Source of the DNA: an uncultured Verrucomicrobiota bacterium
GTDB lineage: Bacteria; Verrucomicrobiota; Kiritimatiellia; PWTM01
NCBI GenBank assembly: GCA_964386675.1
Contig: CAYLTB010000001.1
Location: 2,353-66,352 of the forward strand
Length of the DNA stretch: 64,000 nt
Direction of reading: 5' to 3'
Shown: in pieces, positions 32,577-58,396 of the stretch
Layout: the number at the start of each line of letters is the position of its first letter
Numbering within the stretch: the stretch's first letter is position 1
The notes under the pieces: generated by a model
What the model saw: only the letters and a program-made list of their open reading frames with translations
What the model was told of the DNA's origin: nothing
The model's database searches: none
Position numbers and translations under genes: made by a program

Positions 32577-33297
32577 GGATATCGTACGGCCCGCCGGCGG
32601 TGCCGACACGTTCCCGCGACGTCGTCTGCCCGTCAATAAAATATCGGGTTCGCCGCTCTCTTTTTTCAACATTTCCCCGGCATCGGCGAGACCGTTGACT
32701 CAAGCCGCCGCCGGCACACGTCGCGCCATTCCGGCCATCGTGGCCGGACGTCGCTCCCGAAACACGTCGAAAGAATGCGAAGAGAACGCCGGAAGCCGCA
32801 GACGTAACGTCGAATCGCCGCTGTTGGGAGTCGGTGTTGTTCCGGCACGGCGATATCTGTCGGCGGATCGTTCGCCGACGCACGTTGGAATATCGGGCCG
32901 ACACGCGGGCCGGTTTTTCGGAAGCATCGCCGACGCGCGACCGCAGCATGACCCGGCCCATGCCGGATGTTGAATGGCAACGTTATCGTTCCGCCCTCCA
33001 TCCCCGGCGCCGCTCCGGGCTCGATGTCCATGGGGGGCGCTCGGAGGAGTTGCCCAGGCTGCGCGTCTGGGCTGAAGAGTGGTCGTCACATCCGGCGCCC
33101 GCGTTGCAGCCGGAACGTCGGTGGAACCGCCGGTGGAATGGCAATGGCGGGTGTTGCGACTTTCCCGAAAAGCGACGGGACTGCCGGGACCACCTTCGAT
33201 CCTTCAGCTGCCGCTGTCGGCGGGCCGGCACCGCAATCCGCTTGTCAATACGGCGGCAGGGACGCATCCTGCGCACGTCCGGCGGAGACCCGCCATC

Positions 33298-35355
33298 ATG
33301 AACGACGATCCGAAAGACCTGCTGCTGGGACCGTATGCGACCCGCGTGACGGAGCGTTCCGCGGTCGTCCTGTGGCTGCCGCACGCCGGCGCGGCATCGC
33401 CCGGCCGGCTGTTCTATCGCCCGGCGCCCGGCGCGGCTTTGCGCGAGGCGCCGACGCGTCCGATCGCCTTTCCGCCCGGGCCGGAGACGCTGCGCGCGGC
33501 GGACGTGACCGGACTCGCACCCCACGCGCCGATCGAGTACGAACTTGAGATCGGCGGTGAACGCGTTTTCGGCTCGTTCTCCACGCCGCCGCCGACCGGC
33601 GCGCGCACGCCGTTCCGGTTCGTCATGTATGGCGACAATCGCTCCGGCCCGGAACGGCATCGGGAGGTGTTGGAAGGCGCCCGGCGCGACTTGCCGTACG
33701 TCTTTATCACCAACACCGGAGACCTCACCGCCAACGCCGCCTCCTGGCGGCAGTGGCGCTCGGAGTTTTTCGGCCCCGGCCGCGAGTTGTTTCGCCGCAC
33801 CGCCGTCTGGCCGGTGCGCGGCAACCATGAAGTGGATGCGATTCTCCTGCGCGCCTTCTTCGACCTGCCGGGACCGGAATGCTACTACAGCGTGGACGTC
33901 GGCAATCTGCACTACGTGGTGCTCGACTCCGAATTGCTCGACTTCGATCATGACCCGGCCGCCCACGCCCGGATGTGCGAATGGCTCGAACGCGACTTGT
34001 CCGCCACGCACGCCGACTGGATCATCAGCGCCAGCCATGTTCCGATCTTCAACATCGGCGGCGACGGCGCCGCCTGGGGCCGCGCCGACGTCCTCGATAT
34101 CCTTGAACGGCACGGCGGCGACATCCATATCAGCAGCCACTCGCACCTCTACGAGCGCTTCCGGCCCATCGGCCCGGCCGGCGGCAAGCCGATCATCCAT
34201 CTGGTCAGCGGCGGCGGCGGCGGGCCCGCCTACGAGCTGCGGCCCAGTCCGATCCTCGCGAAGAACTACTCGGGCCTGCATTACTGTTTCTTCGAGGCCG
34301 ATGGACTCCGTCTGGACATGACCGTGAAGGCGCCCGACGGCACGGTCGTGGACCGGCTGACGCTTGAAAAGCGCGACGGCCGCTTTGCGCCGGACCTGAT
34401 GCGCGATGCGCTGACCACCGCAGAGGCCGCCGACCTCGCTTATGTCGAATCCGTACGCCTTCGCGTGGACTACCTCGAAACGCCGGCGCCGGGGCGCGAG
34501 TGCCGCGTGGCCCTCCGGGCCCACGAGCGATTGCCGGCCGAGGCGTGGGTGCGGCTGGAGTCCGCCGCCGACGGCGGTTGGGCGGTCCCGCCCTCGGAAT
34601 TCGAAGCGGGCCGGCAGCCGTTCGAGCTTGCCGTGCGCGCGCCGGACAACCTGGAAGTGCGTTCCGGATTCGTGCGCCCCCCGCTGCGACTGCGGCGAAC
34701 CGTCGTGTTGCGCGGAATCGCTTATGCCGGCGGCGACGTCGCGCCATCGCTGACGGAGGCCTCCATCCGCCGGTTCATCCCGGACCCGGTCCGCGTGCCG
34801 GTGCCTCGGGCGCCGGCGGGCTGGTGCGTGGACGGCCGTCTGGAAAAGTGGCGCGCCATCCCGCCCGTCTCGCGCGCCGGCGGTCCGCCGAGCCGCGCGG
34901 TTCGGCTGGCGTGGGACGAAAGCGGGCTGTACGGCGCATTTTGGGACGCCGCGCCGCCGGGTGCGCCGCGCGGGGAGTACCTGGAATTCTATGTGGAGTC
35001 CGATTTCGGCCGGGCGCTGAGCTGTCATCGGACCCCGTGGGCGTCGAGTTTCCGCTTCTCCCCCGACCGTGCCGCGGGGCCCGGACCGGCGAACGCATCC
35101 TCCGGGTATGGTCCCTTGCGGCACCGACCCCGCGAGATCGCCGCGCGGTGGGACTTTGTGGACGGCGCCGCGGCGGTCGAGTTCCGGATTCCGGCCGTCG
35201 CGCTGGGGCCGGATCCGCTCGCGCCGGGCCGCGTGCTGGGGCTGCATTACCGGCTGTGGGCCGGAAATACGATGCTGGAAGAGTACCTCGACACCGAGGG
35301 CAAATCCGCCGTATGGATGACGCCGCTATATTGGGGCGCGGTGCGCCTGGCGTGA
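33298..35355 (+). CDS. metallophosphoesterase (purple acid phosphatase-like) with extra C-terminal domains
   Basis: The N-terminus has a PAP-like Ig/Fn segment (RVTERSAVVLW). Metallophos motifs are present (FVMYGDNR, GDLTANAASW, GNHE). Another ~330 aa follow at the C-terminus. Confidence 0.75.
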   Translation: MNDDPKDLLLGPYATRVTERSAVVLWLPHAGAASPGRLFYRPAPGAALREAPTRPIAFPPGPETLRAADVTGLAPHAPIEYELEIGGERVFGSFSTPPPTGARTPFRFVMYGDNRSGPERHREVLEGARRDLPYVFITNTGDLTANAASWRQWRSEFFGPGRELFRRTAVWPVRGNHEVDAILLRAFFDLPGPECYYSVDVGNLHYVVLDSELLDFDHDPAAHARMCEWLERDLSATHADWIISASHVPIFNIGGDGAAWGRADVLDILERHGGDIHISSHSHLYERFRPIGPAGGKPIIHLVSGGGGGPAYELRPSPILAKNYSGLHYCFFEADGLRLDMTVKAPDGTVVDRLTLEKRDGRFAPDLMRDALTTAEAADLAYVESVRLRVDYLETPAPGRECRVALRAHERLPAEAWVRLESAADGGWAVPPSEFEAGRQPFELAVRAPDNLEVRSGFVRPPLRLRRTVVLRGIAYAGGDVAPSLTEASIRRFIPDPVRVPVPRAPAGWCVDGRLEKWRAIPPVSRAGGPPSRAVRLAWDESGLYGAFWDAAPPGAPRGEYLEFYVESDFGRALSCHRTPWASSFRFSPDRAAGPGPANASSGYGPLRHRPREIAARWDFVDGAAAVEFRIPAVALGPDPLAPGRVLGLHYRLWAGNTMLEEYLDTEGKSAVWMTPLYWGAVRLA

Positions 35356-35383
35356 TCACCGGGGGCGCTGCGCGCCGCGCCGT

Positions 35384-35429
35384 TTCCAAGCCTTGGAAAA
35401 TGGCGGCGATTTTCTTCCAAGCTTTGGAA
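35384..35429. repeat. tandem pair of 15-bp palindromes TTCCAAGCCTTGGAA / TTCCAAGCTTTGGAA, 16-nt spacer
   Basis: Copy 1 is at 35384-35398 (7-bp arms) and copy 2 at 35415-35429 (6-bp arms). Copy 2 is nested in a larger hairpin whose stems are AATGGCGG (35399-35406) and CCGCCATT (35430-35437). The element lies between the convergent 3' ends of the phosphoesterase and gspF genes. The same element recurs at 55769-55814. Confidence 0.7.
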
Positions 35430-35523
35430 CCGCCATTGCCCCATCCGCCCGCGATCGGCGGCCCGCCGGTCGCCGATCGCCCGGCCTCAAGCGTCGATCG
35501 CCGCGCCTCCCGCCGCGTCCCGT

Positions 35524-36837
35524 TCAGTTCGTCTTGAGGCCGCTGGTCAGGTCGAATACGGCGGTCAGCATGCTGATGGCGACGAAGCCGACGAACACCG
35601 CGACCAGCAGGATGAGGACCGGCTCGATCAGCGTCGTGAGCACGCGAACTCGGCGCTCCAGCTCGGCATCGTACCGGCGCGCAATGCGTTCGAGCGCGCC
35701 GACGACGTCGCCGCTCTCCTCGCCCACGGTCAGCATGTCGGTCAGCAGCGGCGGGAAGATGCCGCCGGCGGTCAGCGGCCCGGAGATCGAGGCGCCGTCG
35801 GTCACGCGCTCGCGCGCGTCCTTCACGGCATCTGCGATGATGCGGTTGCCGAGGGTGGATTCGACGATGGCCAGGGCGCGCAGCACGGGCACGCCATTGG
35901 CCAGCAGCGCGCCGAGGGTCCGGGCGAATTGTCCGAAGGCCGCGGCCTGAACGACGGGTCGAAACAACGGCAGCCGCAGCAGGGCGCGGTCGCGCCACCG
36001 GGCGCCGGCGGGGGTCCGCAGCATGCGGCGCGCGGCCGGCACGGCGACCGCGAGGGCGATGGCCATCCACCAGCCGTGCCGCGCGAGCGCGCGGCTGACG
36101 GCGATCAGGGCGCGCGTCGAAGCCGGCAGCGCGCTGCCGAGCTCGGCGAAAATGGCCGTGAAGCGCGGCACGACGAAAATCAGCGTGAAAACCAGCGTCG
36201 CGGCGCCGACGAGCAACACGAAAAGCGGATACGCCAGCGCCGTGACCGCGCGTTCGCGCGCGGCGGCGACGCGCTCATAGTGCTCGGCCAGACGCGACAG
36301 CGTCTCGCCCAGCCGGCCGCTCTCCTCGCCGGCGCGGACCATTGAGGCGAAGAGCGGTGGGAAGATGGCGGGTCGGCGTTCGAGCGATTCGGAGAGGCTC
36401 GCACCGCGGACGATTTCATCGCGCAGTTCCTCAAACAGCGTCGAGCGCGCGCGGTCTTCACGACGCTGGGCCAGCGTGTGCAGGGCGCGGCCGAGCGTCA
36501 TGCCCGCGCCGAGCAGGTCGCTGATTTCGCGCGTAATCATGGAAAGTTCGCCCGGTTTCAGGCGGCGGCCTCCGCGCACGACGGCCCCGTCGCCGGGCCG
36601 CGCGGCCGCCGTTCGGGGCGCCGCCGGCAGTCCGGCCGCGCGGGCAGACAGGGCGGCGGGCGTGCCCGCGGGGGCGGCCGAGGCGGTCGTTGCGCCGACG
36701 GACGATTCGCGGATGTCGATCGGCGCCAGGCCCCCGCTCTGCAGGCGGCGCAGCGCGGCAGCGCGGTCGGGGACCTCGAGCACGCCCTCCACCCGCTCGC
36801 CGGTGCGCGACCGGGCGCTGTAGCGAAAGCGCGGCAC
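35524..36837 (-). CDS. gspF: type II secretion / type IV pilus inner-membrane platform protein (GspF/PilC family)
   Basis: Two T2SSF repeats and the N-terminal consensus (ERVEGVLEVPDRAAALRRLQSGGLAPIDI) are present. The GTG start at 36837 lies 2 nt after the gspE stop. The ORF extends to 36924. Confidence 0.8.
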   Translation of the reverse strand: MPRFRYSARSRTGERVEGVLEVPDRAAALRRLQSGGLAPIDIRESSVGATTASAAPAGTPAALSARAAGLPAAPRTAAARPGDGAVVRGGRRLKPGELSMITREISDLLGAGMTLGRALHTLAQRREDRARSTLFEELRDEIVRGASLSESLERRPAIFPPLFASMVRAGEESGRLGETLSRLAEHYERVAAARERAVTALAYPLFVLLVGAATLVFTLIFVVPRFTAIFAELGSALPASTRALIAVSRALARHGWWMAIALAVAVPAARRMLRTPAGARWRDRALLRLPLFRPVVQAAAFGQFARTLGALLANGVPVLRALAIVESTLGNRIIADAVKDARERVTDGASISGPLTAGGIFPPLLTDMLTVGEESGDVVGALERIARRYDAELERRVRVLTTLIEPVLILLVAVFVGFVAISMLTAVFDLTSGLKTN

Positions 36838-36839
36838 GC

Positions 36840-38558
36840 TCAGGTCTCCGTCAACGCCTCGTCTTCTTCGGAGACGCGGAGCACTTCCTCGATCGTCGTG
36901 ACCCCGTCCAACACCTTGCTCCACCCGTCGTGCCGCAGCGTGCGCAGGCCGTGCCGGAGGGCTTCCGCTTTGATCGCGTTGCTGGAGGCGCGGGCGACGA
37001 CCAGGGCGCGGACCGCGTCGTTGACCGTGAGTATTTCGTAGACGCCGGTGCGGCCGCGGTAGCCGGTGCCGCGGCAGGCCTCGCAGCCGGCCGCTTCGTA
37101 GATCGTCCGGCCAGTCAAGCGCGCCCGGGGGAACCCGACTTTTTCGAGCAGCGCGTCATCCGGCATCCAGGGGCGCCGGCAGGCGGCGCAGAGACGGCGC
37201 ACCAGCCGCTGCGCGACGATGGCCTCGATGGACGACGCCACGAGAAACGGTTCGATGCCCATGTCCACCAGGCGCGTCACGGCGCCGGCCGAGTCGTTCG
37301 TGTGCAGCGTGCTGAAGACGAGATGGCCGGTCAGCGCGGCGCGGATCGCGATCTCCGCGGTTTCCTTGTCGCGAATTTCGCCGACCATGATGATGTCCGG
37401 GTCTTGCCGGAGGATATGCCGGAGGCCCACGGCGAAGGTGAAGCCGATCTCGGGCTTGACCTGGATCTGGTTGATGCCGGGCATTTCGTACTCGATCGGC
37501 TCCTCGATGGTCAGGATGCGCTTGTCCACCGAGTTGATGGTGTGGAGCCAGGCATAGAGCGACGTGGACTTGCCGGAACCGGTGGGGCCGGTCACCAGCA
37601 GGATGCCGTGCGGCCGGCTGATCAAGCGCTTCAACAGCGCCTCGTCCTCGGCGCAGAGCCCCAGTTTGTCCATTCCGAGCAGCCCGCTGCGCCGCAGCAG
37701 GAGGCGCAGACTGACGCTCTCGCCGTACACGGTCGGCATCGTCGAGACGCGTACGTCGAGATCCTCGCCGCGGATGCGCAGTCCGATGCGGCCGTCCTGC
37801 GGCAGGCGTTTTTCGGCAATGTCCATGCCGGCCATGACTTTGACGCGGGAGATGATCGCCGACTGAAACCGCTTCAACTGGGCCGGAACGGGCGTCGGAT
37901 GAAGCACGCCGTCAATCCGGTACCGCACGCGCAGGTCGTTTTCCTGCGGCTCCAGGTGGATGTCCGTGGCGCCGTCCTGGTAGGCTTCCCAGACGATCTG
38001 GTTGACGAACTTGACGACGGACGCCTCCTGGTCGAGATCGTCAATGTTCTTGTTGAACAGCTCCGCCTCCGGCGCGATTTCGAGCGGCTGCGCCTGGTCC
38101 TGGATGATGGCGTCCAGCGTGTCGGCGCCGACGCCGTAGAGCCGCTTCGCGGCTTTGGCAATCTCGGCGGCCGCGGCGAGGGCGAATCGAACCTCGCGGC
38201 CGCCGGCCAGCCGCAGCGCATCGGCGAGGCCGGGCCGGAACGGGTCCGCCACGACGACGCGCAACGCGTCCTCCTCGATGGCGACGGGGACGACGTTGAA
38301 GTGAAACACGGTTTGGGTCGGCAGCAGCGCCAGCGTTTCGCGGCTGGGACGGATCTCCTCGGCGCGGAAAAAGGGAATTCCCATGGCCGCGGCGAGGCCG
38401 CGGAGGAAGTCCTCCTCCGGCGCGAAAGGACTTCGGACGACCGTCTCGACGACGGTCTGTCCCTTCGCGCGCGCCAACTGCAGAATCTCCTCCGCCCGCG
38501 CCCGGTCGAAGAGTCCCGTTGCCGCCAAAAGTTCCGCCGGTCGTGGTCTGCCAGGCAT
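36840..38558 (-). CDS. gspE: type II secretion / type IV pilus assembly ATPase (GspE/PilB/MshE family)
   Basis: A T2SE N-terminal domain is followed by a RecA-like ATPase with Walker A GPTGSGKST, Asp box, Walker B and tetracysteine-like CAAC...C motif. The ATG at 38558 (MPGRPRPAELLAATGLF) was chosen within ORF 36840..38723. Confidence 0.85.
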   Translation of the reverse strand: MPGRPRPAELLAATGLFDRARAEEILQLARAKGQTVVETVVRSPFAPEEDFLRGLAAAMGIPFFRAEEIRPSRETLALLPTQTVFHFNVVPVAIEEDALRVVVADPFRPGLADALRLAGGREVRFALAAAAEIAKAAKRLYGVGADTLDAIIQDQAQPLEIAPEAELFNKNIDDLDQEASVVKFVNQIVWEAYQDGATDIHLEPQENDLRVRYRIDGVLHPTPVPAQLKRFQSAIISRVKVMAGMDIAEKRLPQDGRIGLRIRGEDLDVRVSTMPTVYGESVSLRLLLRRSGLLGMDKLGLCAEDEALLKRLISRPHGILLVTGPTGSGKSTSLYAWLHTINSVDKRILTIEEPIEYEMPGINQIQVKPEIGFTFAVGLRHILRQDPDIIMVGEIRDKETAEIAIRAALTGHLVFSTLHTNDSAGAVTRLVDMGIEPFLVASSIEAIVAQRLVRRLCAACRRPWMPDDALLEKVGFPRARLTGRTIYEAAGCEACRGTGYRGRTGVYEILTVNDAVRALVVARASSNAIKAEALRHGLRTLRHDGWSKVLDGVTTIEEVLRVSEEDEALTET

Positions 38559-53817: not shown

Positions 53818-54701
53818 GGATGCTCGGCGTCGTGCGCGCGGATTTTGGCGAGCACCGCGGGGCCGGCCTCGTCGTAGATCTCGCGGATCGCGGGGTCGTC
53901 CATGCGATAGACGCGGTCTTCGAAGGCCGTCGTATCAAGACGGCGGAACAGCCGTTGCTCGGCGTCGGCGAGGTCCTTGCCATAGATGTGGAACGAGTCC
54001 GCGTGCCAGTGCAAGCGGCCCAGTTCGACCGGCCGCCCGCGGCGGCGCGCCACCGCGTCGGCCACGACGTCCCGCGTGAACATCACGAAGCCGAACATGT
54101 TCATGAAATTGGCTCCCCACGCGTCGTTGCTGCGGAAGCGGATGTTCGTGTTGAGCCAGCCGATCCCGTCCGCACCCTCGAGGATGCGGTACCAGATGGA
54201 CTGCAGGCACGGCGGATCGTAGCAATCGAGGTCGAGGTTCGGCATCCAGGTGATCATCTGCGCCTGCCGCGTGAACGGCTGTGCCGCGAGCTTCTCGATG
54301 ACCCGCTCGATCTGCGGTACGACGAAGGGGCCTTTTTCGACGCTGGCGCCGTTTTCAAACTCGCGCCAGACGCCGTAGCGGGCCAGCCGGCCATGGTAGG
54401 TGTATTCCCAGCGCGTGTCGGCGGGATCGTTGATGTTCTTGACCCAATGGTCCTTTGCGCCCTGCAACTCCAGCACGTATTCGCGCAGGTCCTCGATCCC
54501 GCCGGGAAACGCGCGGTGGATCATCGGGTCGCTCATCGGGCGTCGCACAGTGATGCCCATGGTGGCGTCGAGGCTGGGCGGGTCGCCGGGCCGGTCGTAC
54601 TGCGTGCGGAACCGCGTGCCGCCGTGATATAACGCCACCAGCGCCCGCTCGTAGGCCTCCGCCAGCGACTCGCCCTCGACGTGCAGCACGGGGATGTCCA
54701 T
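53814..54701 (-). CDS. thymidylate synthase (ThyA) family protein, divergent
   Basis: It aligns along the whole length with ThyA. LELQGAKDHW matches WFLQGDTN and QIERVIEKLAAQPFTRQAQMITWMP matches QI..V...LK.DP.SRRIIVSAWNP. The nucleophile is conserved in PPCLQSIWYRI (PCH..Q.Y), RSNDAW matches RS.D, and HADSFHIY matches GDAHIY. The start is at MDIPVLHV (54701); an alternative lies at 54731. Confidence 0.65.
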   Translation of the reverse strand: MDIPVLHVEGESLAEAYERALVALYHGGTRFRTQYDRPGDPPSLDATMGITVRRPMSDPMIHRAFPGGIEDLREYVLELQGAKDHWVKNINDPADTRWEYTYHGRLARYGVWREFENGASVEKGPFVVPQIERVIEKLAAQPFTRQAQMITWMPNLDLDCYDPPCLQSIWYRILEGADGIGWLNTNIRFRSNDAWGANFMNMFGFVMFTRDVVADAVARRRGRPVELGRLHWHADSFHIYGKDLADAEQRLFRRLDTTAFEDRVYRMDDPAIREIYDEAGPAVLAKIRAHDAEHP

Positions 54702-55382
54702 CGCGTTCTCCGGGTTCGATGCCGTTCGCACGGTAGCAATAACGCGACCCGCGCGTCAAACGCGTGCGGCGGCCCGAGCGCGGTCAATTACAGCGCCGCC
54801 AAGCGCGGGCTCATCGGCCTGACCAAGTCCCTGGCCGTCTGGGGCGCGCCCTATGGCGGCCGGGCCTGCTGCGTAGCGCTCGGCCCGGCGCTCACGCGGG
54901 CCGCCATGATCGACATCATGGGGGACTTGTACGATCCCTCGCCGCTGGAAATCACGCGCCATCCCGACGCCATCGACCGGCAGAGGCGCCTGATCGACCG
55001 CATTCATGCCCTGGGCGCGGAGGTGGTCATGTCGTCGCACCTGTCGTGTCTGCCGACGACGGAACAGGTGGCGGAACACCTGCGGGCCCTGCGGGCGCGC
55101 GGTCCCGACGTGGTGAAGATCGTCACGGGGGGGGGCGATACGGAGGGCGAACGGACGGAGGCGCCGCGGACCACGCTGGTCCAGAAGCGCGAGGTCGGGA
55201 TGCCGTTCATCCACTTCCGCAACGGCCGGTTCAGCCGTACGCACCGCTGCTTCGGACCGGCGCTCGGCCTCTCGATCGCGTTCGCCGTCTACCGCTGCGA
55301 ACCGCGCTACGGGATGACGCCGCCGACGATCCGGGCCATGAGGGCGGTGTTGGACAACCTCCACTGGAAGAACAGCGGATGA
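54681..55382 (+). pseudogene. type I 3-dehydroquinate dehydratase (AroD)-like ORF, apparently degenerate, with SDR-like fragment at 5' end
   Basis: The C-terminal ~150 aa align with AroD (AEVVMSSHLSCLPTTEQVAEHLRALRARGPDVVKIVT matches [38 protein letters not shown]). The Schiff-base Lys of the SMAKTG motif is replaced (HFRNGRFSR). The N-terminal 60 aa instead resemble the YxxxK region of an SDR (VNYSAAKRGLIGLTKSLA). The 5' end overlaps the convergent ThyA-like gene. Confidence 0.4.
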
Positions 55383-55768
55383 AGCGAGCACTGCGAAAAC
55401 TCAAAGGACCCGACCTGCCCTCCTCGCGGCCGACCTGCGGGCGTGCGCCGTCCGCGCAACGGCGCAGGAGGGACGACGGCGGGAGCCGCCCCCGCCGCTG
55501 TCGGACTCCGAGCGCGGCGAGCTTCCGCGCGAGGGCGCCGGGCTCGTGAATGCCGTGACCGCCCGGGCCGAGGCGCTGCGGCCGGCGGGGAGGGCGGGCG
55601 CACCTCGTCGTCGCGCCATGGGGCTTGAGAACGCCGAGTATACGGGTCCCGGAGAATCCATGGTCTGGGCGGCGGCGGGGTTAGCGAGGCGGGTGCGCGT
55701 GCTCGCGAGCCGGACCGTGAAAGATTGATGCATTCGGTCAGAACGCGCGACCCTGCAAGGGTGGAGGT

Positions 55769-55814
55769 TTCCAAGGCTTGGAAGTCGGCCCGCCCGTTTT
55801 TCCAACCGTTGGAA
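55769..55814. repeat. tandem pair of 15-bp palindromes TTCCAAGGCTTGGAA / TTCCAACCGTTGGAA, 16-nt spacer
   Basis: Copy 3 is at 55769-55783 and copy 4 at 55800-55814, both with perfect 7-bp arms. Spacing and architecture are identical to the pair at 35384-35429. The element lies 9 nt past the malQ stop in a convergent intergenic region. Confidence 0.7.
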
Positions 55815-55822
55815 GCCGCAGG

Positions 55823-57373
55823 TCAGCCGGCCGGCGGCGCGCGCCCGGCCGCGCGCGTGAGGCGCGCGAGCCGCGTCTTCGCCGCGGCGGTGAGCTGCGG
55901 CCACGCGAACCGCCACTGCCAGTTGCCCTGCGCCGTGCCGGGCGTATTCATCCGCGCCTCCGACCCCAGTGCGAGAACGTCCTGCAGCGGCGCGATCGCC
56001 AGCCGCGCGGGAGAGCGCCACGCGAGTTCGACCATCCGCGCGGGCGCCTTCGCCGGGTCGCGTCCCAACAGCGCCTCCGCCGCCCGCCGCGCCCGCGCGA
56101 CTTCGCCCTCCGCCGACGCGGCCGACGCCTCGAACCAGCCGCGCGCCGTGTCGTTGTCGTGCGTGCCCGTGTACACGACGCTGTTCTCGCGGAGGCGCTC
56201 CAGGCGGTCCGGCCGCTCCGCCAACTCGCCGAAGAGGAACTGCAAAACCTCCATGCCCGGCAGACCGAAGCGGTCGCGCAGGGCGCGGACCTCGTCGGTT
56301 ATGATGCCGAGGTCCTCCGCGAGGATCGGCAGCCGGCCGCCGAGTGCGTTGCGCAGCGCCGCCAGTAGCGCGTCGCGCGGGCCGGCGACCCAGCGGCCGC
56401 GCTCCGCGGTCGGTTCGGAGGCCGGGATTTGCCAATAGTCCTGCAAGCCCCGGAAGTGGTCGAGGCGCAGCCAATCCGCCCACGCGAGCGCGCGCCGTAC
56501 GCGGGCGATCCACCAGCGATACCCTTCGGCGGCGTGCGCCTCCCAGCGGTAGAGCGGATTGCCCCAGCGCTGGCCGGTGGTTGAGAAATAGTCCGGCGGA
56601 ACGCCCGCGACCACGGTCGGATGCCCTCGATCGTCCACGTGAAACAGGTCGCGGCGCGCCCAGACGTCTGCGCTGTCGTGGGCGACGAAGATGGGCAGAT
56701 CGCCGATCAGCCGGATGCCGAGCCGGGCGGCGGTGCGGCGCAGCGCCGCCCATTGGCGATCGAAGAGGAACTGGAGGATTTCCTCGCGGCGGATCTCTCG
56801 ATCGAGCCGCCGTCGCGCGGCGTCCAGCGCGTCCGGCTCTCGTTGCGCCAGCGGCGCCGGCCAGTCGGTCCAGGCCCTGCCGCCGTGCTCGGTCTTGAGC
56901 GCCATGAACAGCGCATAATCCGGCAGCCAATCCGCCTGCCGGCGACGGAAGGCGGCGAACCCGCGCTGCCGAGCGGCCGACGCCGCGGAGAACCGGTCCG
57001 CGGCCGCCTGCAGTCGCGCTCGGCGCGCCGGCAGGATGGCGCCGAAATCCACCCGCGTCGCATCGGTGATCGGAAAGCCTTGCAGGTCGCCGGCGGTCAA
57101 CCAGCCGTCGCGGCGGAGGTCATCGAAGCTGATCAGCAACGCGTGGGCGGCGAACGTCGAAAGGCTCTGGTAGGGTGAGTCGCCGTAACCGGTAGGGCCG
57201 AGCGGCAGAAACTGCCAGTATCGCTGGCGCATCGCCGAGAGCGCGCGCAGCCAACGGCGGGCATGCGGACCGATCTCGCCGATGCCCCAGGGGCCCGGCA
57301 GCGAGGTGACATGCAGCAGTAAGCCGGCGGCGCGCTCCGGCCGCGCGGCGCGGCCGGAGCGCTCAATCGTCAT
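55823..57373 (-). CDS. malQ: 4-alpha-glucanotransferase (amylomaltase, GH77)
   Basis: LLLHVTSLPGPWGIGEIGPHARRWL...YWQFLPLGPTGYGDSPYQSLSTFA is the MalQ N-terminal signature. GH77 catalytic region motifs follow. The start is at MTIERS (57373), and the ORF extends to 57481. Confidence 0.88.
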   Translation of the reverse strand: MTIERSGRAARPERAAGLLLHVTSLPGPWGIGEIGPHARRWLRALSAMRQRYWQFLPLGPTGYGDSPYQSLSTFAAHALLISFDDLRRDGWLTAGDLQGFPITDATRVDFGAILPARRARLQAAADRFSAASAARQRGFAAFRRRQADWLPDYALFMALKTEHGGRAWTDWPAPLAQREPDALDAARRRLDREIRREEILQFLFDRQWAALRRTAARLGIRLIGDLPIFVAHDSADVWARRDLFHVDDRGHPTVVAGVPPDYFSTTGQRWGNPLYRWEAHAAEGYRWWIARVRRALAWADWLRLDHFRGLQDYWQIPASEPTAERGRWVAGPRDALLAALRNALGGRLPILAEDLGIITDEVRALRDRFGLPGMEVLQFLFGELAERPDRLERLRENSVVYTGTHDNDTARGWFEASAASAEGEVARARRAAEALLGRDPAKAPARMVELAWRSPARLAIAPLQDVLALGSEARMNTPGTAQGNWQWRFAWPQLTAAAKTRLARLTRAAGRAPPAG

Positions 57374-58214
57374 GCGCGAGGCCCGTGATGACGTAGCCGC
57401 CCGACCGTTCGTCGGACTCGAGGGTGAGCAGGCCTCGGCGCTGCGCTTCTTCGAGCAGCGCGTTGAACGAACGAAACCCATGGTAGGCTTCGTTGAAGTT
57501 CGGGCGTCGGCGCTTCAGCGTCTGCTTGACCATCGAGCCCCAGACCCGCCCGTCGCCGCCGCGGTCGGCGAGCAGCTCCTCGACGACTTCGATCACATGC
57601 GCGATGCCTTCGCTGGCCGGGTCGCCGTCCGCGGCCGGCGTCTTCGCGGCCGCCGCGGCGGGCCGGGCGGCTGCGGCGGCCCCGGCGGCCGCCGGCGCGC
57701 GAGTCCGGCGCGGTTTGCGCGCCGCGCTGGAGGCGCGCGCGCGGGCGAGGTCGTCGTAGTAGATGAACTCGTCGCAGTTCGCGATCAGCAGGTCGGAGGT
57801 CGAGTTCTTCACACCGACGCCGATCACGGTCTTGTTGCTCTCGCGCAATTTGCTCACCAGCGGCGAGAAGTCGGAGTCGCCGCTGATGATCACGAAGGTC
57901 CGTACGTGCGGCTTCGTGTAGCAGAGGTCCAGCGCGTCCACGACCAGCCGGATGTCGGCGGAGTTCTTGCCGGACTGGCGGACGTGCGGCACGTCAATCA
58001 GTTCGAAAGACGCTTCGTGCATCGCGGCCTTGAACTCCTTGTAGCGCGCCCAGTCGCAGTAGGCCTTCTTGACGATGATGGGCCCCTTCAGCAGCAGCTT
58101 TTCGAGAACGAGCCGGATGTCGAAGCGCTCGATCTTCGCATCGCGCACGCCGAGCGCGACGTTTTCAAAATCGCAGAAGACCGCCATGCTGCCGGAGTCG
58201 GTGATTTCGCTCAT
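57363..58214 (-). CDS. NYN (LabA-like) nuclease-domain protein with C-terminal OST-HTH/LOTUS domain
   Basis: MAVFCDFENV...KAYCDWARY...IISGDSDFSPLVSKLRESNKTVIGVG is the NYN/LabA fold. The C-terminal ~80 aa (VWGSMVKQTLKRRRPNFNEAYHGFRSFNALLEEAQRRGLL) are OST-HTH-like. It overlaps the malQ start by 11 nt. Confidence 0.7.
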   Translation of the reverse strand: MSEITDSGSMAVFCDFENVALGVRDAKIERFDIRLVLEKLLLKGPIIVKKAYCDWARYKEFKAAMHEASFELIDVPHVRQSGKNSADIRLVVDALDLCYTKPHVRTFVIISGDSDFSPLVSKLRESNKTVIGVGVKNSTSDLLIANCDEFIYYDDLARARASSAARKPRRTRAPAAAGAAAAARPAAAAAKTPAADGDPASEGIAHVIEVVEELLADRGGDGRVWGSMVKQTLKRRRPNFNEAYHGFRSFNALLEEAQRRGLLTLESDERSGGYVITGLAHDD

Positions 58215-58396
58215 GGGTGTTATCCTTCCCGCGGCAGGATGGCGCGGGATGCGCCCGGGCCGCAACGCCCTCCATCCTAACGCATCGGCGGAGAAACACA
58301 ACGCCGGAGCGCCGACCGTTGCGCGCGCGCGTGCGCTCCGCTATCGTGGGCGCCGCCGCCGCGCCGGCGTTTTCACCGCCGCGGCCGCCCGATGCC

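What the first reader, a model, noticed from the sequence alone, without database searches (positions are those of the whole stretch)
55769..55814. Novel repeated element, copy B: TTCCAAGGCTTGGAA-16nt-TTCCAACCGTTGGAA immediately after the malQ stop
This is the second occurrence of the two-palindrome element (see 35384-35429), with perfect 7-bp arms in both units and the same 16-nt inter-palindrome spacer length. It begins 9 nt after the malQ stop codon on the opposite strand. The location is consistent with a 3'-end RNA structure or terminator-like element, or a protein-binding site shared by the two loci.
Basis: seen in the sequence. Interest (0 to 1): 0.5.

Follow-up and report, generated by a model that had tools for sequence, protein, structure and literature searches.

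The report
Class-wide iterated palindrome doublet in Kiritimatiellia
The 46-bp feature after malQ is one copy of a 15-17 bp DNA palindrome found from about one per 25 kb to one per 5 kb in Kiritimatiellia-type genomes, usually in pairs set a whole number of helix turns apart, which points to an unidentified DNA-binding protein, not an RNA terminator.

Summary
TTCCAA-N3-TTGGAA occurs four times in the window (0.05 expected), as two pairs, each with a 16-nt spacer. It is not a two-copy curiosity.

Across these loci the unit is t-TTCCAA-K-S-M-TTGGAA-a. The central base is always C or G. The dyad symmetry runs right up to that base, and the inner bases differ by lineage.

Neighbouring units lie 21/22, 30-33 or 42/43 bp apart, that is 2, 3 or 4 helix turns, and at no other distance up to 51 bp apart from one 44-bp gap that spans a degenerate copy. 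Arrays reach six units. Sites sit in convergent, divergent and tandem spacers in background proportions, with no strand bias, next to unrelated genes.

About 17% of clusters lie inside genes. One coding doublet, present in four genomes, arose without any indel.

The RNA hairpins are weak (-4.2 kcal/mol). There is no terminator, promoter or Rfam match.

Best reading: recognition sites for a conserved dimeric dsDNA-binding protein that binds cooperatively. Individual sites turn over quickly. The binding protein and its cellular role are unknown. No paper in the library contains these sequences.

The parts
55769..55783 (.). Copy B, unit 1: TTCCAAG-G-CTTGGAA, 7-bp arms around a central G
55784..55799 (.). 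Copy B spacer, 16 nt (centre-to-centre 31 bp, about 3 helical turns). GC-rich middle, T-run before unit 2
55800..55814 (.). Copy B, unit 2: TTCCAAC-C-GTTGGAA, 7-bp arms around a central C
35384..35398 (.). Copy A, unit 1: TTCCAAG-C-CTTGGAA
35399..35414 (.). Copy A spacer, 16 nt, unrelated in sequence to the copy B spacer
35415..35429 (.). Copy A, unit 2: TTCCAAGCTTTGGAA (6-bp arms)
55823..57481 (-). Context only: malQ (GH77 4-alpha-glucanotransferase). Its stop codon lies 8 nt from copy B. It converges with a degenerate SDR/DHquinase-like ORF at 54681..55382 (+)
33079..35355 (+). Context only: metallophosphoesterase gene. Its stop lies 28 nt before copy A. It converges with T2SS protein F at 35524..36924 (-)

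Best explanation
Copy B, like copy A, is one instance of a highly iterated palindrome that is conserved across Kiritimatiellia-type genomes: t-TTCCAA-K-S-M-TTGGAA-a.

It is most likely the double-stranded-DNA recognition site of a conserved, still unidentified dimeric DNA-binding protein. One dimer would bind each 15-17 bp palindrome. Dimers on neighbouring units would contact each other along one face of the helix, as a dimer of dimers on a doublet and as longer oligomers on arrays.

Sites arise in place by point mutation and are kept wherever the genome tolerates them. That is mostly in spacers of any kind and sometimes inside genes. The motif and its phasing are preserved, while individual sites come and go.

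Shown here: the motif, its symmetry, its phasing, its distribution, its origin in place, and its turnover.

Inferred: that a protein reads it, and that binding is cooperative.

Guess: that the cellular role is architectural (nucleoid organisation, topology or domain boundaries) and not gene-specific regulation.
For: 1. Conservation. All 120 rows of the genome scan come from 48 Kiritimatiellia-type MAGs with GC 44-73%. Chance expectation for the whole collection is roughly 0.04.

2. Sharp specificity. Counts are 398 exact cores, 83 with one mismatch and 44 with two. Shuffles give 1.7 and 18 for the last two.

3. Symmetry. It runs to the centre. The central base is C or G in 99% of units. Positions 6 and 8 are symmetric and lineage-specific: T-S-A in 76 of 78 units of one MAG, G-S-C in another MAG and in the window. 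A 1-nt loop cannot fold, so this symmetry points to a protein dimer and not to a hairpin.

4. Phasing. Of 196 neighbour distances up to 51 bp, 195 are 21/22 (15), 30-33 (171) or 42/43 (9). The remaining one, 44 bp, is 2 x 22 across a degenerate middle copy. Distances of 53, 62-64 and 73/74 bp likewise span degenerate middle copies. The three-turn class occurs in 42 of 47 MAGs.

5. No link to transcription direction or gene ends. Contexts are tandem 86, convergent 24, divergent 21, against a background of 219, 44 and 46. The orientation of the central base gives 108:84 and 95:95.

6. No regulon. The 94 start-adjacent genes fall into 146 Pfam families.

7. Origin in place. The same codons of a GH95-like gene carry an exact doublet in four genomes, with no indel relative to 108 of 120 homologues that lack it. 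The inner bases follow each lineage's dialect and change the amino acids.

8. Selection on motif and phase. In the 86% relative the malQ doublet survives while its flanks and spacer have diverged. The spacing changes from 31 to 32 bp.

9. Precedent. NrdR binds two 16-bp boxes separated by 15-16 bp (25-26 bp in one genus) and needs a whole number of turns between them (PMC12051234; PMC13584703).
Against: - No binding protein has been identified. Nothing in the window or in about 1 Mb of related loci points to one. The single Lrp-like gene with a doublet upstream (L066) is in a genome where doublets occur every ~5 kb, so this may be coincidence.
- Individual sites are not conserved. Copy A is absent from the syntenic spacer of an 80% relative. 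Copy B is absent after malQ in the 78% and 68% relatives. This fits a drive or a selfish process as well as weak selection on many sites.
- Density varies about five-fold or more between genomes.
- Some arrays have near-identical spacers and so grew by tandem duplication.
- Gene context rests on a home-made gene caller.
- The genome scan was truncated, so restriction to Kiritimatiellia is not proven.
Confidence: 0.55

Rival explanations
1. REP/BIME-like selfish or domesticated extragenic repeat: short palindromic units spread by a dedicated enzyme (RAYT-type or other) and tolerated in spacers.
For: - About 83% of clusters are extragenic.
- Clusters occur roughly once per 5 kb to once per 35 kb.
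- Units within one genome are near-identical, with lineage-specific inner bases and flanks.
- Some arrays have similar spacers.
- Sites turn over quickly at orthologous loci.
Against: - The identical 12-base core recurs in all 48 MAGs over GC 44-73%, a depth at which known REP sequences are not conserved (the REP comparison is from general knowledge).
- The units are symmetric, with no orientation mark and no preferred inverted pairing (direct 124, G>C 44, C>G 28).
- The hairpins are weak.
- The coding doublet arose without an indel, so by substitution and not by insertion.
- Helical phasing is not expected from transposition.
- No Y1-transposase-like ORF was found in about 1 Mb, but the probe was recalled from memory, so this is a weak negative.
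Confidence: 0.15
2. DNA uptake signal, analogous to Neisseria DUS or Pasteurellaceae USS: the motif accumulates through biased uptake plus recombination and is read by a competence or pilus receptor.
For: - A conserved core with lineage dialects.
- Exact copies greatly outnumber near-copies.
- Sites occur inside genes in all three reading frames, at the cost of amino-acid changes.
- Sites arise by substitution.
- There is no strand or gene-function bias.
- Type II secretion / type IV pilus-like genes are present, for example T2SS E and F next to copy A.
Against: - Known uptake signals are asymmetric single motifs, not helically phased pairs of palindromes (general knowledge).
- The strong exclusion from coding DNA (about 17% of clusters) differs from the uptake signals I recall, many of which lie within genes (general knowledge).
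- Density in the window lineage is low, about one cluster per 25 kb.
- Competence has not been reported for this group, to my knowledge.
- T2SS genes are ubiquitous here and prove nothing.
Confidence: 0.12
3. RNA-level element: a 3'-end hairpin pair acting as a terminator or mRNA stabiliser.
For: Both window copies lie just after stop codons in convergent spacers. Across all loci the median distance to the upstream stop is shorter than to the downstream start, but not significantly so (42 against 26, p = 0.15).
Against: - Each hairpin is -4.2 kcal/mol, and the folds are not better than shuffles.
- No U-tract follows. The flanks are T-rich on the 5' side and A-rich on the 3' side, the reverse of a terminator.
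- No terminator-like site is found, and there is no Rfam match.
- There is no orientation bias relative to transcription.
- The element is equally common in divergent spacers.
- Symmetry extends into what would be the loop.
- Spacing quantised in DNA helical turns has no meaning for RNA.
Confidence: 0.05
4. Operator of an ordinary transcription factor controlling a specific regulon that includes malQ and the T2SS/phosphoesterase locus.
For: Tandem palindromic boxes three turns apart are classic operator geometry. Larger arrays tend to lie next to gene starts: 22 of 30 arrays of three or more units have a start-adjacent side.
Against: - Both window copies lie between convergent genes, where there is nothing to regulate.
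- Contexts match the background distribution.
- Neighbouring genes are functionally unrelated.
- Sites are not conserved at orthologous loci.
- Extrapolating from one cluster per 5-35 kb gives an estimated hundred or more clusters per genome, up to several hundred (inference).
Confidence: 0.08

Closest known systems
HIP1, the highly iterated palindrome GCGATCGC of cyanobacteria (PMC5861425; PMC4390886)
   Same: A short palindrome over-represented across a whole major lineage. It occurs in coding and non-coding DNA and appears to be maintained rather than inserted. It shows no gene-level function, and a chromosome or nucleoid role has been proposed.
   Different: HIP1 is 8 bp, far denser (up to more than one per gene), not organised in phased doublets, and tied to orphan methyltransferases. 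The present motif is 15-17 bp, mostly intergenic, and comes in helically phased pairs and arrays.
REP/BIME (REPIN) extragenic palindromes of Proteobacteria
   Same: Extragenic, in the hundreds per genome, clustered with regular spacing, found in operon spacers and between convergent genes. They are known to be bound by proteins (IHF, gyrase; from general knowledge).
   Different: REPs are longer imperfect palindromes with an orientation mark and stable hairpins. They are species- or genus-specific and linked to a RAYT transposase. None of these features was found here.
Paired NrdR boxes; more loosely, Lrp-type phased operator arrays
   Same: Two palindromic boxes of about 16 bp separated by 15-16 bp, with variants one turn longer. 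Binding needs a whole number of helical turns and is by a tetramer (PMC12051234, PMC13584703). The geometry matches the 16/17-, 6/7- and 27/28-nt spacers seen here.
   Different: NrdR boxes have a different consensus and occur only upstream of ribonucleotide reductase operons. The present sites are genome-wide and are not tied to promoters.
DNA uptake sequences (Neisseria DUS, Pasteurellaceae USS)
   Same: A lineage-wide core with dialects, an excess of exact copies, spread by substitution into tolerant positions including coding DNA, and frequent placement after genes.
   Different: Uptake sequences are asymmetric single motifs with no phased doublets. No competence evidence exists for this group.

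Membership tests
Intrinsic (Rho-independent) terminator | Stable GC-rich stem-loop | tested here: not met
   6-bp A/T-rich stems at -4.2 kcal/mol. The 76-nt folds have z = -0.3 to -1.4 against shuffles.
Intrinsic (Rho-independent) terminator | U/T tract immediately 3' of the stem | tested here: not met
   No terminator-like site in 55300-56000 or 35200-35700. The family logo has A-rich 3' flanks.
REP/BIME-REPIN | Extragenic location at high copy number | tested here: met
   165 of 199 clusters lie outside confident ORFs. Clusters occur once per 5-35 kb.
REP/BIME-REPIN | Imperfect palindrome of 20-40 nt forming a stable hairpin, with an asymmetric orientation mark | tested here: not met
   The core is 15-17 bp and symmetric to the central base, the hairpin is weak, and central-base orientation in doublets shows no inverted-pair rule.
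REP/BIME-REPIN | Cognate RAYT (Y1 transposase), typically flanked by the repeats | tested here: inconclusive
   phmmer with an IS608 TnpA sequence recalled from memory found nothing in about 1 Mb of loci. RAYTs are single-copy, so this sample cannot exclude one.
REP/BIME-REPIN | Sequence specific to a species or genus | tested here: not met
   The identical 12-base core occurs in 48 MAGs with GC 44-73% whose MalQ proteins are only about 53-60% identical to the window's.
DNA uptake sequence (DUS/USS) | Lineage-wide core with dialects and an excess of exact copies | tested here: met
DNA uptake sequence (DUS/USS) | Frequent occurrence inside coding regions, arising by substitution | tested here: inconclusive
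   Present in genes (34 of 199 clusters) and arising by substitution, but strongly depleted from coding DNA relative to its share of the genome.
DNA uptake sequence (DUS/USS) | Preferential uptake by a competence apparatus or receptor | not testable with these tools
   Needs transformation or uptake assays.
HIP1-type highly iterated palindrome | Palindrome over-represented across a whole major lineage, in both coding and non-coding DNA | tested here: met
HIP1-type highly iterated palindrome | Cognate orphan DNA methyltransferases recognising the motif | not tested
   No methylation data and no methyltransferase search. The motif contains CCA-N5-TGG; I recall this as a known type II restriction-site pattern, but did not check it here.
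Paired operator of a tetrameric repressor (NrdR-type geometry) | Two palindromic boxes separated by a whole number of helical turns | tested here: met
   195 of 196 neighbour distances up to 51 bp fall in the 2-, 3- or 4-turn classes. The exception, 44 bp, is 2 x 22 across a degenerate copy.
Paired operator of a tetrameric repressor (NrdR-type geometry) | Location in promoters of a defined regulon | tested here: not met
   Contexts equal the background, the window copies lie between convergent genes, and neighbours fall into 146 Pfam families.
Known RNA family (Rfam 15) | Covariance-model match | tested here: not met
   No hit at gathering thresholds in the window. E-value scans of both loci gave only an unrelated hit at E = 0.14, outside the element.

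The most novel reading that the evidence does not exclude
Kiritimatiellia carry a previously unrecognised genome-wide DNA signal. It is a helically phased palindrome doublet read by a lineage-specific oligomerising DNA-binding protein (a nucleoid or topology organiser, or an uptake or recombination receptor).
Probability: 0.45. Interest if true: 0.75.

Novelty: new variant of a known kind. Interest (0 to 1): 0.62.

Why it matters
Lineage-wide iterated DNA motifs such as HIP1, DUS/USS and REP are rare. Each one has opened a question about chromosome biology, gene transfer or selfish DNA.

This one has an unusually informative anatomy: a perfect dyad, strict helical phasing, lineage dialects, and origin in place even inside genes. 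That makes the hypothesis of a cooperative DNA-binding reader directly testable in the few cultured Kiritimatiellia.

It is also of practical use:
- It may serve as a sequence marker for Kiritimatiellia contigs in metagenomes, if the truncated genome scan holds up.
- It is a possible cause of assembly breaks.
- It is a trap for gene callers, because ORFs run through it.

For the window itself, the result removes a tempting but wrong annotation of a malQ terminator.

Tried and rejected
- Terminator or RNA-structure reading. Rejected after folding, consensus scans and Rfam searches.
- Sigma-70-like promoter. TTGGAA-N17-TCCAAT superficially resembles a -35/-10 pair. Rejected because both window copies and 18% of all clusters lie between convergent genes, because 2- and 4-turn spacings exist, and because the scanner finds no promoter.
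- tRNA or rRNA association. None: one tRNA in 120 loci.
- Regulon. Neighbouring genes are unrelated.
- A mobile unit of about 2.4 kb flanked by doublets in MAG CAIVKH. The segments share only the ~50-bp elements.
- RAYT search. Nothing found. The probe was recalled from memory.
- Lrp-like binder. One Lrp-like gene with a doublet about 130 nt upstream (L066). Judged likely coincidence in a doublet-dense genome. That probe was also recalled from memory.
- Compensatory change as evidence for a hairpin. TTCCAG...CTGGAA variants are enriched (7 against 0.3 expected). The same symmetry holds at positions 6/8, which cannot pair, and it follows lineage, so it was attributed to dimer symmetry or dialect.
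- Half-site enrichment in the window. Inconclusive.
- First gene callers (longest ORF, then GC3) gave wrong contexts and missed the Pfam-supported T2SS F gene. They were replaced by an iteratively trained codon model.
- Look-up of the 552-aa MalQ ORF found nothing, because the public gene call uses a later start.
- Viral contigs. Some follow the family rules. L123, L125, L126 and L130 have an A/T centre and 28- or 45-bp spacing and were set aside as a different repeat.

Full report
**1. The observation**

The sequence is as described.
- Copy B is TTCCAAGGCTTGGAA (55769-55783), a 16-nt spacer, then TTCCAACCGTTGGAA (55800-55814).
- Copy A is TTCCAAGCCTTGGAA (35384-35398), a 16-nt spacer, then TTCCAAGCTTTGGAA (35415-35429).

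The pattern TTCCAANNNTTGGAA has 4 matches against 0.05 expected, and no shuffle reached 4. Relaxing to three mismatches adds only chance-level hits. So the window holds four exact units and no decayed ones.

malQ is a GH77 gene on the minus strand, 55823..57481. The public gene call starts it at 57373. Its stop codon is 8 nt from the element.

Both copies lie between convergent genes:
- Copy B lies between malQ and a degenerate SDR/3-dehydroquinase-like ORF ending at 55382.
- Copy A lies between a metallophosphoesterase gene (stop at 35355) and T2SS protein F (stop at 35524).

**2. It is a lineage-wide family**

I scanned one genome for each of 185,579 species with TTCCAANNNTTGGAA-N(6-36)-TTCCAANNNTTGGAA. 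My estimate of the chance expectation for the whole collection is about 0.04.

Every hit is from a Kiritimatiellia-type MAG. The labels are Kiritimatiellia/-ales/-ae, Tichowtungia, Pontiella, "Lentisphaerae", "Verrucomicrobiota", and a few evident mislabels. There are 48 MAGs, with locus GC from 44% to 73%.

The window fits this group. It has 69% GC and encodes sulfatases, T2SS genes and GH77. Its MalQ and T2SS F proteins find their named relatives mainly among Kiritimatiellia.

Because the scan was truncated, restriction to this class is not proven.

**3. Anatomy of the unit**

From 397 units the logo is t-T-TTCCAA-[T/G]-[C/G]-[A/C]-TTGGAA-A-a.
- The central base is C or G in 99% of units.
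- Positions 6 and 8 are symmetric and lineage-specific. They are T-S-A in 76 of 78 units of MAG CAIVKH, and G-S-C in CAISWQ, in the window and in its relatives.
- The flanks are A/T-rich to about +/-10, and the middle of the spacer is GC-rich.
- In 924 kb of loci there are 398 exact cores, 83 with one mismatch and 44 with two. Shuffles give 1.7 and 18 for the last two.

Because the symmetry reaches the bases next to the centre, a hairpin would need a 1-nt loop, which cannot fold. This is the signature of a protein dimer on duplex DNA.

**4. Phasing**

Clusters are singles (53), doublets (115), triplets (16) and arrays of 4-6 units (15).

Of 196 neighbour distances up to 51 bp, 195 fall at 21/22 (15), 30-33 (171) or 42/43 (9). 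None falls at 23-29, 34-41 or 45-51. The search pattern allowed any distance from 21 to 51 bp equally.
- The one exception, 44 bp, is 2 x 22 across a degenerate middle copy.
- Distances of 53, 62-64 and 73/74 bp also resolve into in-phase steps across degenerate middle copies.
- The three-turn class is present in 42 of 47 MAGs.
- Lineages prefer 31 or 32 bp.

Some arrays have similar spacers and grew by tandem duplication. Most dispersed doublets have unrelated spacers.

Quantisation in units of about 10.5 bp is a property of duplex DNA. It implies contacts between proteins bound on one face of the helix. NrdR has the same geometry: two 16-bp boxes separated by 15-16 bp (25-26 bp in streptococci), with binding that needs a whole number of turns (PMC12051234; PMC13584703).

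**5. Where the sites are**

I used a codon-model gene caller trained on these loci. It recovers the Pfam-supported genes of the window.

| Context | Clusters with the motif | Motif-free spacers in the same loci |
|---|---|---|
| Tandem | 86 | 219 |
| Convergent | 24 | 44 |
| Divergent | 21 | 46 |

The proportions are the same.
- The orientation of the central base is unrelated to the direction of neighbouring genes (108:84, p = 0.10; 95:95).
- Sites are not significantly closer to stops than to starts (42 against 26, p = 0.15).
- The 94 start-adjacent genes fall into 146 Pfam families, from sulfatases to tRNA synthetases and RuvB.
- There is no tRNA link.

Density is about one cluster per 25 kb in loci chosen through a protein (4 clusters in 101 kb). 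Within motif-ascertained loci, additional clusters occur once per 5-35 kb, depending on the MAG.

**6. Sites inside genes, and how sites arise**

Thirty-four of 199 clusters lie inside confident ORFs. They are read in all three frames, as FQxLE, [FL]PxxGK or S[KN]xWK.

One case is decisive. A GH95-like gene carries an exact 31-bp-spaced doublet at the same codons in four genomes (L050, L107, L144, L145).
- Among 120 homologues, the aligned peptide (consensus LPxVxK...SxHWKxFW) has the same length in all but one.
- 108 of the 120 lack motif-compatible peptides.
- So the doublet was made by substitutions in a nearly matching sequence, not by insertion.
- Its inner bases follow each lineage's dialect and change the encoded residues: PMIGK/SNHWK, PSIGK/SKAWK and PTLGK/SKHWK.

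**7. Conservation and turnover**

In the closest relative (MalQ 86% identical, L140) the doublet is still present right after the conserved end of malQ.
- The flanking non-coding DNA and the spacer have diverged.
- The spacing has moved from 31 to 32 bp.
- A 20-nt deletion lets the ORF run through the element.

In more distant relatives the picture differs.
- At 78% and 68% identity there is no doublet after malQ, although doublets or triplets occur elsewhere on the same contigs.
- The 83% and 70% contigs end 29 and 23 nt after the malQ stop without one.
- The spacer syntenic with copy A in an 80% relative (L147) has none.

So the motif and its phase are preserved, but individual sites are labile.

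**8. What it is not**

- Each hairpin is -4.2 kcal/mol. The 76-nt RNA folds are no better than shuffles (z = -0.3 to -1.4).
- No terminator-like or sigma-70-like site is found.
- There is no Rfam match.
- No Y1-transposase-like ORF turned up in about 1 Mb. This is a weak test, because the probe was recalled from memory.
- The ~2.4-kb intervals between doublets in one MAG share nothing but the elements.

**9. Interpretation**

The best-supported reading is a recognition site for a conserved dimeric dsDNA-binding protein that binds cooperatively across units. Sites are created in place and kept wherever the genome tolerates them.

Three things remain open:
- what the protein is;
- whether the maintaining force is selection for a chromosomal function (as proposed for HIP1, PMC5861425);
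- or whether it is a drive, such as biased uptake or gene conversion.

REP-like mobility and an uptake signal remain minority rivals. The terminator reading is essentially excluded.

**10. Novelty**

None of the four 15-mers I searched for (two from the window, two from the commonest dialect) occurs in any paper of the library. A search for Kiritimatiell* together with palindrom* gave nothing relevant.

The element belongs to the known kind [quoted passage not shown]. Its combination of a perfect dyad, strict helical phasing, dialects and substitutional origin inside genes is, as far as I can tell, undescribed.

Noticed in passing
window 54681-55382 (+): An ORF with weak, partial hits to both short-chain dehydrogenase (residues 29-75) and type I 3-dehydroquinase (residues 98-206). 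It looks like a chimeric or decayed gene. The public annotation calls only a 158-aa DHquinase_I (weak) product here.
   Followed up: partly
window 55383-55768: About 386 nt between the decayed ORF and copy B have no convincing ORF or RNA match. The only Rfam hit is Ms_IGR-2 at 55673-55723, E = 0.14, far below its gathering score.
   Followed up: partly
window 57363-58301 (-) and malQ; L139-L143: An NYN-domain (predicted nuclease) gene overlaps the start of malQ by about 10 nt. The NYN-malQ pair is syntenic in all six relatives retrieved (MalQ 68-86% identical), which suggests a conserved operon.
   Followed up: no
L066 3836-4011: The only Lrp/AsnC-like gene found in about 1 Mb of loci has a doublet about 130 nt upstream of its start, between it and a rubredoxin gene. 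This is possible autoregulation by a candidate reader, but the genome (CAIVKH) has a cluster every ~5 kb, so coincidence is likely.
   Followed up: partly
L141 and L142 (contig ends): Two short metagenome contigs carrying malQ orthologues end 29 and 23 nt after the malQ stop. This is where the window has its doublet, so the repeats may break assemblies.
   Followed up: no
L140 3304-3350: A 20-nt deletion removed the malQ stop region, so the called MalQ (543 aa) reads through the doublet. This is an example of these elements misleading gene callers.
   Followed up: yes
L012 1670-1808; L037 6989-7096; L035 339-508: Arrays of 4-6 units abut or overlap the 5' ends of genes for signal-peptide proteins. 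In L012 the likely ATG lies in a spacer, and the last unit encodes part of the signal peptide (MPKKVSNGWKLFFVALAG...).
   Followed up: partly
L123, L125, L126, L130 (viral contigs): Pairs of TTCCAA-N3-TTGGAA with an A/T centre and 28- or 45-bp spacing occur in lower-GC viral contigs. This is probably an unrelated phage repeat. Other viral contigs (for example L128, L132, L136) carry the Kiritimatiellia-type doublets.
   Followed up: partly
L143 6660-6760: Downstream of malQ in the 68% relative there are separated half-sites (TTTCCAAGCC and GGCCTTGGAAA) about 60 nt apart. They may be remnants of a disrupted unit, or chance.
   Followed up: no
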